A DNA stretch of 64,000 nt. Source: the human T2T-CHM13v2.0 reference genome, Homo sapiens. Each line of letters starts with the position of its first letter. Within the stretch, counting starts at the first letter, position 1. The notes under the pieces were generated by a model. The model made no database searches and was not told where the DNA came from. It was given only the letters and a program-made list of their open reading frames with translations. The translations under genes and the position numbers were made by a program. Shown here piece after piece: positions 14,539 through 17,780 of this stretch. The stretch lies in assembly GCF_009914755.1 (NCBI RefSeq), contig NC_060940.1. One strand, written 5' to 3'.

Positions 14539-15123
14539 CTTTGCAGTTCTCCTGGAACTGCATTCCCTATCCAAGTGCAAGTGCCCAGCTCACATTGTGG
14601 GGAGGTGGTCGGGGTTCCAGAGCACTGAGCATCCCCGGGCAAGTACCTCTCTCCTGCTGCACCTCAGGCTCATCTGAAAATGGCTCCAGGAGGTGGCGGC
14701 CCCAGCACTGGCCACTCCACTCCTTGGCCCACCTTGTTCTTCTCGAAGAGCTGTCAAAGACCACCCTGCTCCTGTCTGTTTTGTAGACTATGTTCCCGGC
14801 AAGGCTTGGTCTGAACACATGGTTCTGCAGATAGAAACACTGGAAAACACTGTCCAGTGACCCGAAGAGAGGGTTCTCTCTTGCCATCGACACTGTGTGG
14901 GATCCCTACATCCTCCCATAACCCCCACCCTGCCTTGATCTTGAATAAGGCACTGTAGGTAACAAGCATGATGCCTGGCCCTGGCAGAGTAGGTGCTCAC
15001 CAATGGCTGAGCTCAGCATCACCTTCCAGCACGCTGCCCTTCATGACCCCACACCACACTGGCCTCTCTCTCTGAAAGTGGAACACTCCATGCCTCCAAC
15101 ATGGGGTTCCCAGAGGGGACAAC
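14539..15123 (+). repeat. Left (donor) arm of 585-bp inverted repeat
   Basis: Reverse complement of 17035-17619 with about 9 mismatches; mirrored ORFs in the track (14567-14893 minus vs 17265-17591 plus). Confidence 0.97.
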
Positions 15124-15498
15124 GTCACCCTGTAGGAGGCATGTTGAAAACCCATGGCAACATTTTTGGCTATCACAATGATTAGGGGTCATTTAGTGGA
15201 CGGGGGCCAGGGTGCCTGACTCCCTGCAATGCCCTGGGCGTCCTGCCCATCAGGATGCATCCTGCATCCTACTGAATGCATGCACAGCCCACTGGACATT
15301 GCTCGGGGTAGAGATGATCTGAGCCTACAGCCTCATTCTGATTTACATTGAAACAGAAAGTAATTTTTATACTAACATACACTGAATTTTCTAGGAATGG
15401 AATCACTGTATAAACTGAAGGAAGACTGCACTTTTCTTTGTTTTTAGAGAGAGGATCTGGCTCTGTTGCTCAGGCTGGAGTGCAGATCACAGCTCACT

Positions 15499-15651
15499 CC
15501 CTGGAACTGCACTCCCTACCCAAGTGCAAGTGCCCAGCTCATATTGTGGGGAGGTGGTCAGGGCTCCAGAGCACTGGGCATCTCTGGGCAAGTACCTCCC
15601 TCCTGCTGTACCCCAGGCTCATCTCTTAAAGACTACCCTGTTCCTGTCTGT
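15499..15651 (+). repeat. Older direct partial copy (~91%) of 14551-14780 inserted in an Alu/FLAM
   Basis: Aligns to 14551-14675 + 14756-14780; flanked by TCACAGCTCACT direct repeats. Confidence 0.9.
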
Positions 15652-16082
15652 TCACAGCTCACTGCAACCTGGAACTCCTGGACTCAAGCGATCCTGCCAC
15701 CTCGAGCTCCCAAAGTACTGGGATTATAGGCATGAGCCACGGTGCCCGGCTGCACTTTGCTTTGTTCAGAACTTTACCAAAGGCTGTTCATCTCTCAAGA
15801 AAGCGCATCGCAGTGACACCACTTGTGTCTTTGAGTTGCTAAGTCTGCACACCTGCATGAGCCGCCTTTGTAGCTGTCCTGCGAGGTGACTTAAATGTGC
15901 AGATACATGTAAGCCTTCAACACAACACCTGACTCGGAGCACATGCTATGTCTTTGCTGTTATAACTATCGTCACTATCATCCCATTTAAAGACACCCAC
16001 TCTGACCACTTCACCATTTCTTCTAGAGGAGCTATGCCCAAGCACTCCCATATCACAACACGTGTATTTTAAGTTACTTTCA

Positions 16083-16379
16083 GGCTGGGCGCAGTGGCTT
16101 ACACCTGTAATCCTAGCGCTTTGGGAGGCCAAGGCAGGTGGGCTCCCTGAGCTCAGGAGTTCGAGAGCAGCCTGGGCAACATGGTGAAAACCTGTCTCTA
16201 CTAAAATACGAAGAATTAGCTGGGCGTGGTGGTGTGTGCCTGTAGTCCTAGCTACTCGGGAGGCTGACACATGAGAATTGCTTGAACCAGGGAGACAAGA
16301 GATTGTAGTGAGCTGAGATAGAGCCGCTGTACCCCAGCCTGGGCAACAGAGCGAGACTCTGTCTCCAAAAAAAAAAAAA
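16083..16379 (+). mobile_element. Alu
   Basis: Sense Alu; TSD AAGTTACTTTCA on both sides. Confidence 0.95.
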
Positions 16380-16439
16380 GTTACTTTCACTTCTACTTTA
16401 TATTTCAGTTAGTGCACTAGGTTGATTTTTTTGCTTGTT

Positions 16440-16665
16440 TGGCTTAAACAGTCTAAATTTATTCTCTCATATTTCTAGAGGCTAGAAGTCCAAGATCAAG
16501 CTGTTGGCAGGACTGGTTCTCTGAGGGCTGCGAGAAAGAATCCGTTCCATGCCTCTCTCCCAGCTTCTGGCAGTTTGCTGGCCATCTTTGGTATTCCTTG
16601 GCCAAAGATGCAACAATGTCCGCAAAAGCATCACCCTGACCTCTGCCTACATCTTCACAAAGGCA
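16440..16665. mobile_element. MLT1-type LTR fragment
   Basis: GGCTTAAACA...TTTATTCTCTCA...GAGGCTAGAAGTCCAAGATCAAG signature. Confidence 0.75.
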
Positions 16666-16673
16666 TTATAGTG

Positions 16674-16860
16674 ATTTTTTTTTTTTTTTGAGACAGCGTC
16701 TCTCTCTGTCACCTAGGCTGGAGGGTACTGGTGCATTCATACAATCACAGCTCCCTCAGCCTCGACCTCCTGGGCTCAAGCGATCCTCCCGCCTCAGCCT
16801 TCCAAGTAGCTGGGACTACAGTGGCACAGCCCCGTTCCCAGCTAATTTTTTTTTTTTTGT
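16674..16860 (-). mobile_element. Alu fragment (right monomer)
   Basis: Antisense Alu consensus ending at the linker. Confidence 0.85.
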
Positions 16861-16861
16861 A

Positions 16862-17780
16862 GGCCAGGCACAATGGCTCATGCCTGTAATCCCAGCACTA
16901 TGGGAAGCTGAGGTTGGTGGATTACCTGAGGTCAGGAGTTCGAGACCAGCCTGGCCAACATGGTAAAACTCCGTCTCTATGAAAAATACAAAAATTAGCC
17001 GGGTCTGGTGGCTAATTTTTTAGCCACCCTCTGGGTTGTCCCCTCTGGGAACCCCATGTTGGAGGCGTGGAGTGTTCCACTCTCAGAGAGAGAGGCCAGT
17101 GTGGTGTGGGGTCATGAAGGGCAGCGTGCTGGAAGGTGATGCTGAGCTCAGCCATTGGTGAGCACCTACTCTGCCAGGGCCAGGCATCATGCTTGTAACC
17201 TACAGTGCCTTATTCAAGATCAAGGCAGGGTGGGGGTTATGGGAGGATGTAGGGATCCCACACAGTGACGATGGCAAGAGAGAACCCTCTCTTCGGGTCA
17301 CTGGACAGTGTTTTCCAGTGTTTCTATCTGCAGAAACATGTGTTCAGACCAAGCCTTGCAGGGAACATAGTCTACAAAACAGACAGGAGCAGGGTGGTCT
17401 TTGACAGCCCTTCGAGAAGAACAAGGTGGGCCAAGGAGTGGAGTGGCCAGTGCTGGGGCCGCCACCTCCTGGAGCCATTTTCAGATGAGCCTGAGGTGCA
17501 GCAGGAGAGAGGTACTTGTCCGGGGATGCTCAGTGCTCTGGAACCCCGACCACCTCCCCACAATGTGAGCTGGGCACTTGCACTTGGATAGGGAATGCAG
17601 TTCCAGGAGAACTACAAAGAACATGCGCCAGAGGCATGGTGGCACATGCCTGTAATCCCAGCTACTCAGGAGGCTGAGGCAGGAGAAACACTTGAACATG
17701 GGAGGCAGAGGTTACAGTGAGTCGAGACTGTGCTACTGTACTCCAGCCTGGCTGACAGAGTGAGGCTCTGTCTAAAAAAA
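16862..17780 (+). mobile_element. Alu split in two (16862-17012 and ~17627-17780) by the inverted duplication
   Basis: Left monomer ends ...AAAATTAGCCGGGTCTGGTGGC; right monomer resumes GGCATGGTGGCACATGCCTGTAATCCCAGCTAC. Confidence 0.88.
17035..17619 (-). repeat. Right (derived) arm of 585-bp inverted repeat, interrupting an Alu
   Basis: Reverse complement of 14539-15123; flanked by Alu left monomer (16862-17012) and right monomer (~17627-17780). Confidence 0.97.

What the first reader, a model, noticed from the sequence alone, without database searches (positions are those of the whole stretch)
14539..17619. 585-bp, ~98.5% identical inverted repeat of unique sequence in CCDC102A intron 3
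Seen: 14539-15123 is the reverse complement of 17035-17619 (about 9 substitutions, no indels by hand alignment), with a 1.9-kb spacer. The arms are almost entirely non-transposon sequence. The left arm runs on into the MER20-like element while the right arm splits an Alu, so left is the donor and right the copy. Inference: the duplication is young or is homogenised by gene conversion. It is a substrate for recurrent inversion of the 1.9-kb spacer. In pre-mRNA it would fold into a ~585-bp near-perfect duplex, much better paired than typical inverted Alus, ending only ~165 nt upstream of the exon 4 acceptor. That could attract ADAR editing or dsRNA sensors and influence exon 4 splicing.
Basis: partly seen in the sequence, partly recalled or inferred. 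Interest (0 to 1): 0.8.

Follow-up and report, generated by a model that had tools for sequence, protein, structure and literature searches.

The report
Catalogued inverted duplication in CCDC102A intron
A 585-base stretch of a CCDC102A intron was copied backwards 1.9 kb away a few million years ago, so the intron RNA can fold into a very long double helix; the structure is real but is already listed in a published catalogue and is probably harmless.

Summary
Window 14539-15123 and 17035-17619 form a 585-nt inverted pair with 9 mismatches, no indels and 1,911 nt between the arms. It lies in CCDC102A intron 3, 164 nt from exon 4.

It is neither an assembly artefact nor new. Barak et al. 2020, Table S8, has the row hg19 chr16:57555252-57555837 / 57557748-57558333 (585 nt, 98.63%). 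It is one of 197 long, tight inverted duplicates in human pre-mRNAs. Reported values are FPKM 0.0017 and editing indices 1.8% and 5.6%.

The right arm is the derived copy. It splits an Alu that is nested in an older Alu, whereas the left arm runs into an old MITE. Genome-wide the arm matches only this locus.

New here:
- Both arms carry a 75-nt patch copied from the two borders of exon 6, joined at a 9-11-nt microhomology.
- An older partial copy without the patch sits in another Alu.
- Both copies end at an 8-bp palindrome.

This suggests serial template-switch repair. The sense RNA is predicted to pair 579 of 585 nt. A 612-locus inversion catalogue does not list the locus. It is most likely a neutral by-product.

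The parts
14539..15123 (.). Left arm: the source copy of the 585-nt inverted duplication. In the pre-mRNA (minus strand) it is the 3' arm.
   Evidence: It continues into an old repeat at its inner end.
17035..17619 (.). Right arm: the derived copy, reverse complement of the left arm with 9 substitutions. In the pre-mRNA it is the 5' arm.
   Evidence: It is flanked by the two halves of one Alu.
15124..17034 (.). 1,911-nt spacer, the loop of the predicted RNA hairpin. It holds the rest of the old MITE, an Alu carrying the third partial copy, a full Alu (16083-16372) and Alu fragments.
14677..14751 (.). Templated patch inside the left arm; the mirror copy in the right arm is 17407-17481. 14677-14699 equals the reverse complement of 11554-11576 (23 of 23). 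14689-14751 equals 11232-11294 (61 of 63). The two pieces overlap at GGAGGTGGC(G)G.
11232..11294 (-). Source 2 of the patch: the last 19 nt of CCDC102A exon 6, the intron 6 donor site and 44 intronic nt.
   Evidence: exon limits from the supplied annotation
11554..11576 (-). Source 1 of the patch, in intron 5, 69-91 nt from exon 6. It was copied in inverted orientation.
15499..15652 (.). Third, older partial copy in direct orientation, equal to left-arm 14551-14675 plus 14756-14780. Identity is 91-92%. It lacks the patch. It is inserted in an internally deleted minus-strand Alu and flanked by the 11-nt direct duplication CACAGCTCACT (15488-15498 and 15653-15663).
   Evidence: (I4)
16862..17011 (+). 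Left half of the host Alu, reference-Alu positions 1-150.
17012..17034 (.). 23-nt filler at the inner junction. It contains GCTAATTTTT, the reverse complement of 16990-16999 in the same Alu, which makes the local palindrome GGTGGCTAA/TTAGCCACC. It also contains CCCTCTGGG, a second copy of the arm's own near-terminal 9-mer.
17620..17632 (.). 13-nt filler at the outer junction. Its origin is not resolved.
17633..17781 (+). Right half of the host Alu, reference-Alu positions 141-290. Positions 141-150 are present on both sides of the insert (8 of 10 identical).
16683..16868 (-). Older minus-strand Alu into which the host Alu is inserted. Its remainder lies at about 17845-17903.
15098..15244 (+). 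Old interspersed repeat, a MITE-like element with a hAT-like terminus. It crosses the left arm's inner boundary at 15123/15124. Only its first ~25 nt are in the arms.
   Evidence: A motif from it occurs 459 times in the genome against 1 for the control. A profile of 30 copies hits 15098-15244 with E = 3.1e-12.
14542..14562 (.). Perfect 8-bp palindrome TGCAGTTC / GAACTGCA with a 5-nt loop, at the outer end of the left arm. The right-arm copy ends 3 nt before it. The third copy starts in its loop.
14266..14374 (-). CCDC102A exon 4. Its acceptor site is 164 nt from the left arm.
   Evidence: supplied annotation

Best explanation
This is a real, evolutionarily recent inverted local duplication inside CCDC102A intron 3. 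It is present in at least two independent human assemblies.

Origin: 585 nt of intron were copied in reverse into an Alu 1.9 kb away. The copied stretch included a 75-nt patch that had earlier been copied from the borders of exon 6, and the first ~25 nt of an old MITE. The most likely mechanism is DNA synthesis that switched templates, either during replication or during repair of a break in the Alu (MMBIR, FoSTeS or SDSA-like). The same source end, marked by an 8-bp palindrome, had been used once before to make an older, shorter copy in another Alu.

Consequence: the pre-mRNA can fold into a 585-bp, 99%-paired hairpin with a 1.9-kb loop. That hairpin is removed with the intron. It stays nuclear, is probably edited at a low level by ADAR, and has no demonstrated effect. 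It is best read as a tolerated by-product, not a device.

Shown: the anatomy, the polarity, uniqueness in the genome, the predicted fold, and the prior listing with its expression and editing values.

Inferred: the template-switch mechanism, the age, and neutrality.
For: Anatomy:
- 585 nt, 9 mismatches, no indel.

Independent presence and prior listing:
- Barak et al. 2020 (PMC7006430), Additional file 1, Table S8, has the row chr16 57555252-57555837 / 57557748-57558333, length 585, identity 98.632%. The spacer is the same 1,911 nt.
- For that row AEI is 1.82% and 5.56%, FPKM is 0.00165, average inosines per transcript is 9.27 and residual identity is 97.05%. The muscle pool has no coverage.

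Polarity:
- The right arm lies between reference-Alu positions 1-150 and 141-290 of one Alu, which is itself inside an older Alu.
- The left arm runs into a repeat family. The motif occurs 459 times against 1 for the control, and nhmmer gives 15098-15244 with E = 3.1e-12.

Not a mobile element:
- In all of CHM13 the arm has 4 matches, and all 4 are in this locus.

Template switching:
- The patch is made of 23 of 23 nt in inverted orientation plus 61 of 63 nt in direct orientation, taken from two sites either side of exon 6 and overlapping at a 9-11-nt microhomology.
- The junction fillers contain short local reverse copies.
- An 8-bp palindrome sits at the shared end of the two copies.

Order of events:
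- The third copy, about 9% diverged, lacks the patch. Both arms, 1.5% diverged, have it.

Fold:
- The minimum-energy structure of the 4,724-nt intron is -2749.9 kcal/mol. 579 of 585 right-arm nt pair in register with the left arm. The arms alone give -1301.5 kcal/mol.

Context:
- Long tight dsRNAs are rare but tolerated in introns.
Against: - No ape or other human haplotype could be examined. The age (3.5-15 My at 1e-9 per site per year) and fixation are inferred.
- Both insertions carry target duplications of about 11 nt. In the sense of the pre-mRNA both share nearly the same 3' end and differ at the 5' end. A reverse-transcription origin would also give that pattern, although there is no poly(A).
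- The junction matches of 9-10 nt are short, and about 3 such matches per junction are expected by chance in the 13 kb searched (my estimate; one search lists several elsewhere).
- The overlap of the old repeat with the arm (~25 nt) is aligned at only moderate posterior probability.
- The family was fished out with a motif taken from the window, so that part of the match is circular.
- Neutrality is an absence-of-evidence argument. Barak's data are polyA+ RNA, which is poor for introns. Non-zero editing indices were in fact recorded.
Confidence: 0.65

Rival explanations
1. The duplication is much older than 1.5% divergence suggests, and the arms are kept alike by gene conversion between them.
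For: The arms are close together and inverted, an arrangement known to allow intrachromatid conversion (general knowledge). hg19 has 8 mismatches and CHM13 has 9, so at least one arm difference is polymorphic.
Against: The 9 mismatches are spread evenly. Identity tracts are 5, 94, 109, 48, 23, 67, 70, 114, 14 and 32 nt. There is no long identical block beside a diverged one. The patch differs from its sources by only 1-2 of 75 nt, a level similar to that between the arms. That fits plain recent events.
Confidence: 0.12
2. The copies were made through RNA. Fragments of CCDC102A pre-mRNA ending near the small palindrome were reverse-transcribed and inserted into nicked Alus.
For: Both derived copies have target duplications of about 11 nt (CACAGCTCACT exact; 8 of 10 for the host Alu). 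In transcript sense both share nearly the same 3' end (14539 and 14551) and differ at the 5' end (15123 and 14780), like 5'-truncated retrocopies. The patch contains an unspliced exon-intron junction.
Against: Neither copy has a poly(A) tail. As read, the target sites do not look like the recalled L1 endonuclease site. The right arm is antisense to the gene. The fillers and the inverted-plus-direct patch are more typical of polymerase template switching on DNA.
Confidence: 0.13
3. The hairpin is functional in cis. It could shorten the effective intron by looping out 1.9 kb. It could hide the copied donor site carried by the left arm. Its right arm could act as an antisense to the exon 6 donor. 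It could also recruit ADAR, so that CCDC102A splicing is tuned.
For: The predicted duplex is very stable and ends 164 nt from the exon 4 acceptor. The left arm carries a sense copy of the exon 6 donor, AAG|GTGGGC against AAG|GTGGGG in the source, and the right arm carries its antisense with 60 of 63 nt matching. Non-zero editing indices are recorded in Table S8.
Against: RefSeq lists a single CCDC102A transcript with no alternative exon here (supplied annotation). Region FPKM is 0.0017. The likely branch point and pyrimidine tract lie outside the duplex (read). A structure a few million years old in a conserved gene is unlikely to be required. No paper linking the gene with editing in humans was found.
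Confidence: 0.08
4. The arms drive recurrent inversion of the 1.9-kb spacer by non-allelic homologous recombination, so the locus is a hidden inversion polymorphism.
For: Validated human inversions have flanking inverted repeats as short as 140 bp and inverted segments as short as 197 bp.
Against: The locus is absent from the 612-candidate table built from five long-read, Strand-seq and optical-map studies of 195 people plus older predictions. No coordinate begins 5751, 5752 or 5753, and no '16-575x' identifier occurs. The hg38 position used for that search is derived from the hg19 row with a recalled offset. The longest perfect tract is 114 bp, below the roughly 130-230 bp I recall as needed for efficient mammalian recombination. 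CHM13 has the ancestral order, because the Alu halves are collinear across the right arm and the old repeat is continuous across the left arm.
Confidence: 0.07
5. Assembly artefact: a fold-back chimera in CHM13.
For: None found.
Against: The same structure is in hg19, which was built from other DNA by another method. The arms differ at 9 sites and have distinct, sensible flanks.
Confidence: 0.01

Closest known systems
[quoted passage not shown] 2020, Genome Biol 21:26, Table S8: 197 structures)
   Same: It is one of them. The chromosome, arm length (585), spacer (1,911) and identity (98.6%) all match the row read.
   Different: The paper treats the set statistically. In the sections and table I read, it says nothing about this locus, its origin or its gene.
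Long, highly paired dsRNAs predicted by dsRNAscan (Andrews and Bass 2025 preprint): 2,018 genome-wide, mostly inverted LINEs, 88% intergenic
   Same: The criteria (>300 bp, >96% paired) are met, and the loop length of about 2 kb is typical.
   Different: This one is genic and is not made of a repeat family, the rarer kind.
Inverted Alu pairs in introns, the usual ADAR substrates
   Same: An intramolecular intronic hairpin with a kilobase-scale loop. Such pairs also exist in this same intron (I2-I16, 72-90% complementary).
   Different: It is about twice as long and far better paired: 99% in RNA against 72-90% for the Alu pairs. The arms are a local duplication, not independent insertions.
Template-switch mutations and MMBIR/FoSTeS rearrangements (Loytynoja and Goldman 2017; Loytynoja 2022; Walker et al. 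2021)
   Same: An inverted copy of nearby sequence, microhomology at a switch point, short templated fillers, and a palindrome at the breakpoint.
   Different: The scale differs. The longest short-range event reported in the 2022 paper is 318 bp. Here 585 nt were copied over 1.9 kb and inserted elsewhere, not in place.
Inverted-repeat-mediated polymorphic inversions (Aguado et al. 2014; Moreira-Pinhal et al. 2026)
   Same: The architecture is the same: two inverted repeats around a short unique segment. Repeat length is within the validated range of 140 bp to 134 kb.
   Different: No second orientation is recorded.

Membership tests
Long tight inverted duplicate in a pre-mRNA (Barak 2020 class) | Arms longer than 300 nt | tested here: met
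   585 nt
Long tight inverted duplicate in a pre-mRNA (Barak 2020 class) | Identity above 96% | tested here: met
   98.46% in CHM13; 98.63% in hg19
Long tight inverted duplicate in a pre-mRNA (Barak 2020 class) | Both arms within one RefSeq transcript unit | tested here: met
   Both lie in intron 3 (14375-19098) by the supplied annotation. The locus is listed in Table S8.
ADAR substrate | Clustered A-to-I changes in RNA from both arms | not testable with these tools
   Only the published indices of 1.8% and 5.6% at FPKM 0.0017 are available. This is too little coverage to decide.
Inverted-repeat-mediated polymorphic inversion | Highly identical repeats in inverted orientation at both ends | tested here: met
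Inverted-repeat-mediated polymorphic inversion | Both orientations seen in people | tested here: not met
   Not among 612 candidate loci. Haplotypes themselves could not be examined.
Segmental duplication (UCSC definition quoted, plus the recalled 1-kb minimum) | At least 1 kb at 90% identity or more | tested here: not met
   585 nt. The locus would therefore be missed by segmental-duplication tracks.
Transposable element copies | Dispersed copies elsewhere in the genome | tested here: not met
   4 matches in CHM13, all within 6.4 kb of one another. Very old, diverged families would escape this search.
L1-mediated retrocopy | Poly(A) tail and target duplication at an A/T-rich nick site | tested here: not met
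   Target duplications are present. There is no poly(A) at either end of either copy. The nick-site consensus is recalled, not tested.
Template-switch / MMBIR product | Copy of nearby sequence with microhomology and templated fillers at the junctions | tested here: inconclusive
   The case is clear for the patch: two templates joined at a 9-11-nt microhomology. The two junctions of the right arm are only suggestive, with 9-10-nt local matches.
   No repeat library was available. The work shows only that the flank belongs to a family of at least 459 copies and spans 15098-15244.

The most novel reading that the evidence does not exclude
The locus is a recurrent template-switch hotspot seeded by the 8-bp palindrome at 14542-14562. 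That hotspot has thrown off copies of the same intron segment at least twice, and the segment itself captured exon 6 border sequence. The resulting hairpin would then be more than a by-product. Its right arm places a 63-nt antisense to the exon 6 donor upstream in the same pre-mRNA, and its left arm places a decoy donor. Folding or ADAR editing of the hairpin would then gate exon 6 or exon 4 splicing in apes only.
Probability: 0.06. Interest if true: 0.55.

Novelty: already known. Interest (0 to 1): 0.25.

Why it matters
As a structure it adds nothing new. It is one catalogued example of a rare class: 197 in human pre-mRNAs, and about 2,000 long highly paired dsRNAs genome-wide.

Two points have modest value.
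- It is a clean, datable example of how such non-repeat dsRNA-forming pairs arise. Local sequence is copied into Alus, with a patch that records two template switches around an exon.
- At 585 nt it falls below the 1-kb threshold of segmental-duplication tracks. Structures like it are invisible to inversion screens that start from those tracks.

If the inversion or the splicing reading were true it would matter more, but nothing here supports either.

Tried and rejected
Whether the locus is in that list is therefore unknown.
- Literature, CCDC102A with 'inversion': 5 papers in the listing, none about this locus by title or abstract.
- Literature, CCDC102A with 'RNA editing': 2 papers, one on a fish and one review.
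- Literature, the hg19 coordinates and the derived hg38 coordinates as words: 0 papers.
- Junction-spanning 35-mer in genome contigs, hoping for a stray human contig: 0 matches.
- Rfam scan of 13000-19500 at gathering thresholds: 0 matches.
- Whole-genome DNA search with the left arm's inner flank (15040-15340): it found only itself and the right arm. The old repeat had to be shown through a motif count and a profile instead.
- Arms as copies of a transposable element: rejected.
- L1 retrocopy: rejected because there is no poly(A).
- Spliced origin of the third copy's 'deletion': rejected. The missing 80 nt are the later patch, and the borders are not GT..AG on either strand.
- The duplicated Alu target as a clock for the insertion: abandoned. 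The two copies differ at 2 of 10 positions and the junction is complex.
- Alu subfamily dating: not attempted, because no consensus library was available.
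Full report
**1. Observation**

The repeat finder on 13000-19500 lists, as its longest inverted pair, arms 14539-15123 and 17035-17619: 585 nt, 98% complementary, 1,911 nt apart.

A base-by-base comparison gives 9 substitutions, no indel and 98.46% identity. The flanks on all four sides are unrelated. blastn against the whole window gives the same pair at E = 0.

By the supplied annotation CCDC102A is on the minus strand and intron 3 is 14375-19098.
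- The left arm begins 165 nt from the last base of exon 4, leaving 164 intronic nt between.
- The right arm ends 1,479 nt from exon 3.

**2. It is already in print, and in another assembly**

Barak et al. 2020 (PMC7006430) aligned every pre-mRNA to itself. For human RefSeq they list 197 inverted duplicates longer than 300 nt and above 96% identity (Results read; Table S8 header read).

The table has this row: chr16 57555252 57555837 57557748 57558333, length 585, identity 98.632.
- Arm length (585) and the gap between arms (57557748 - 57555837 = 1,911) are exactly those of the window.
- The offset to CHM13 places the gene start within about 13 bp of the hg19 start I recall for CCDC102A. That start is recalled, not a tool result.
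- 98.632% of 585 is 8 mismatches, against 9 in CHM13. One arm difference is therefore polymorphic between the two assemblies.

It also gives the only expression and editing data I could reach.
- The editing indices are 1.82% and 5.56%. The estimated inosines per transcript are 9.27. Residual identity is 97.05%.
- The muscle pool has no coverage.
- The authors' threshold for 'expressed' was FPKM 0.01, passed by 20 of the 197. This row does not pass.

No paper's main text mentions the coordinates. No relevant paper links the gene name with inversion or with RNA editing (listings only).

**3. Which arm is the copy**

I used the full-length Alu in the spacer (16083-16372) as a ruler.
- The sequence left of the right arm (16862-17011) covers ruler positions 1-150.
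- The sequence right of it (17633-17781) covers positions 141-290, in the same orientation.
- One Alu is therefore split by a 621-nt insert: 23 nt of filler, the 585-nt arm and 13 nt of filler.
- Ten Alu positions (141-150) are present on both sides, 8 of 10 identical.
- That Alu is itself inserted in an older minus-strand Alu, at 16683-16868 with a remainder near 17845-17903.

At the other arm, the sequence past 15123 belongs to an old interspersed family.
- A 19-letter motif from it occurs 459 times in CHM13, against 1 for the reversed control.
- A profile built from all 30 fetched copies hits the window once, at 15098-15244, with E = 3.1e-12.
- The element therefore starts about 25 nt inside the left arm and runs on past the arm's end. 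The right arm holds only those first ~25 nt.
- Two caveats apply. The motif was taken from the window, and the first 25 aligned positions have only moderate posterior probability.
- I recall that this family resembles MER20. No repeat library was available, so the name is untested.

They also show that CHM13 carries the original, uninverted order of the spacer.

**4. The arms are unique to this locus, but they are a mosaic**

A search of the whole CHM13 genome with the left arm gives 4 matches. All are local:
- the arm itself;
- the right arm;
- a 125-nt direct match at window 15500-15624 (91%);
- a 63-nt match at 11232-11294 (97%).

The arms are therefore not copies of a mobile element, at least at the sensitivity of that search.

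The 63-nt match is the last 19 nt of exon 6 plus the donor site and 44 nt of intron 6. Immediately before it in the arm, 14677-14699 is the exact reverse complement of 11554-11576 in intron 5 (23 of 23). The two pieces overlap at GGAGGTGGC(G)G, which occurs in both sources.

So 14677-14751, mirrored at 17407-17481 in the right arm, is a 75-nt patch. It was written from two templates about 300 nt apart on either side of exon 6, one read backwards, and the pieces are joined at a 9-11-nt microhomology. If the junction is placed after the microhomology, the patch differs from its sources at 1 of 75 positions in the left arm and 2 of 75 in the right arm.

The third copy (15499-15652) corresponds to 14551-14675 plus 14756-14780. 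That is the arm sequence without the patch.
- It is 13 of 150 positions diverged.
- It lies inside an internally deleted minus-strand Alu.
- It is flanked by an exact 11-nt duplication of that Alu, at 15488-15498 and 15653-15663.

**5. Order of events and age**

The inferred order is:
1. a short direct copy into one Alu, about 9% diverged;
2. the exon 6 patch written into the source;
3. the 585-nt inverted copy into another Alu, 1.5% diverged.

The Jukes-Cantor distance between the arms is 0.0155.
- At 1e-9 substitutions per site per year this is 7.8 My, with a Poisson range of 3.5-14.6 My.
- At 0.5e-9 it is twice that.
- The rates are general knowledge, not tool results.

The mismatches are evenly spread. 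Identity tracts are 5 to 114 nt, which gives no sign of conversion tracts.

**6. Mechanism of origin (inferred)**

The patch is the strongest clue, because two templates, opposite orientations and a shared microhomology are the signature of a polymerase switching templates.

The junctions of the right arm add weaker clues.
- The inner filler contains a 10-nt reverse copy of the same Alu 12 nt upstream, which makes a 9-bp local palindrome.
- It also contains a 9-nt second copy of the arm's own near-terminal sequence.
- Matches of this length are common by chance in 13 kb. Only their position makes them suggestive.

The two derived copies end within 12 nt of each other on the source, at 14539 and 14551. 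That point is a perfect 8-bp palindrome with a 5-nt loop, 14542-14562. Short palindromes are known switch points (abstracts).

Published short-range template-switch events reach 318 bp. This event is larger and dispersed, closer to what is called MMBIR/FoSTeS or break repair with templated synthesis.

An RNA-mediated origin is not excluded. Both copies have target duplications of about 11 nt. In transcript sense they share a 3' end and differ at the 5' end. However, there is no poly(A).

**7. What it does (inferred)**

ViennaRNA folding of the whole intron in the sense of the gene (4,724 nt) gives -2749.9 kcal/mol.
- In that structure 579 of 585 right-arm nucleotides pair in register with the left arm.
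- Three of the nine DNA mismatches become G-U pairs.
- The arms alone give -1301.5 kcal/mol.
- The longest uninterrupted helix is 158 bp.

This places the structure in the rare class that Andrews and Bass count as 2,018 genome-wide (>300 bp, >96% paired). Most of those are inverted LINEs and 88% are intergenic.

Both that preprint and Barak et al. conclude that such structures are selected against in mature mRNA but tolerated in introns, because the sensors are cytoplasmic.

The likely branch point and pyrimidine tract of exon 4 lie in the 164 nt outside the duplex (read).

My reading is that the hairpin forms on some transcripts, is edited a little, and leaves with the intron. This is an inference from weak data.

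**8. Inversion**

Validated human inversions have flanking repeats down to 140 bp, so the architecture qualifies.

The locus is nevertheless not among the 612 candidates assembled from five long-read, Strand-seq and optical-map studies of 195 people, older paired-end predictions and the hg38 duplication track.
- The supplementary tables hold no coordinate beginning 5751, 5752 or 5753, and no identifier of the form 16-575x.
- The hg38 position (about 57,521,340-57,524,421) is the hg19 row minus an offset that I recall, not a tool result.
- At 585 nt the pair is below the 1-kb floor of the duplication track. It could therefore only have entered that list if someone had seen an inversion.

**9. 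Verdict**

It is an already catalogued member of a known class, with no evidence of function. The mosaic origin and the repeated use of one palindromic breakpoint are new details of modest interest.

Supplements that I could not see may bear on whether the locus has been noted elsewhere:
- the dsRNAscan tables;
- the original inversion call sets of Ebert 2021 and Porubsky 2022.

Noticed in passing
window 14732-14733 (left arm) and 17425-17426 (right arm): The patch gives the left arm a sense-oriented copy of the exon 6 donor site, AAG|GTGGGC against AAG|GTGGGG at the real site 11275/11276. It gives the right arm a 63-nt stretch that, in the pre-mRNA, is antisense to the real exon 6 donor (60 of 63).
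   Followed up: partly
window 15441-15750: The Alu that hosts the third copy lacks roughly reference positions 84-224. It joins its 3' end directly to its left monomer, which looks like an internal deletion or a monomer recombination.
   Followed up: no
window 15499-15652 against 17483-17607: The third copy is 90% complementary to part of the right arm and is transcribed before the left arm. It could pair transiently with the right arm during transcription.
   Followed up: no
window 17783-17806: An (AT)n(AG)n microsatellite sits at the poly(A) end of the host Alu, where the older Alu resumes.
   Followed up: no
window 15115-15130: A weak quasi-palindrome, GGGGAC-AAC-GTCACC, lies exactly at the inner end of the left arm. 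The copied segment stops at the end of its loop.
   Followed up: no
CHM13 against hg19, arms: hg19 has 8 arm-to-arm mismatches and CHM13 has 9. At least one of the nine sites is a human polymorphism. Which one could not be determined.
   Followed up: no
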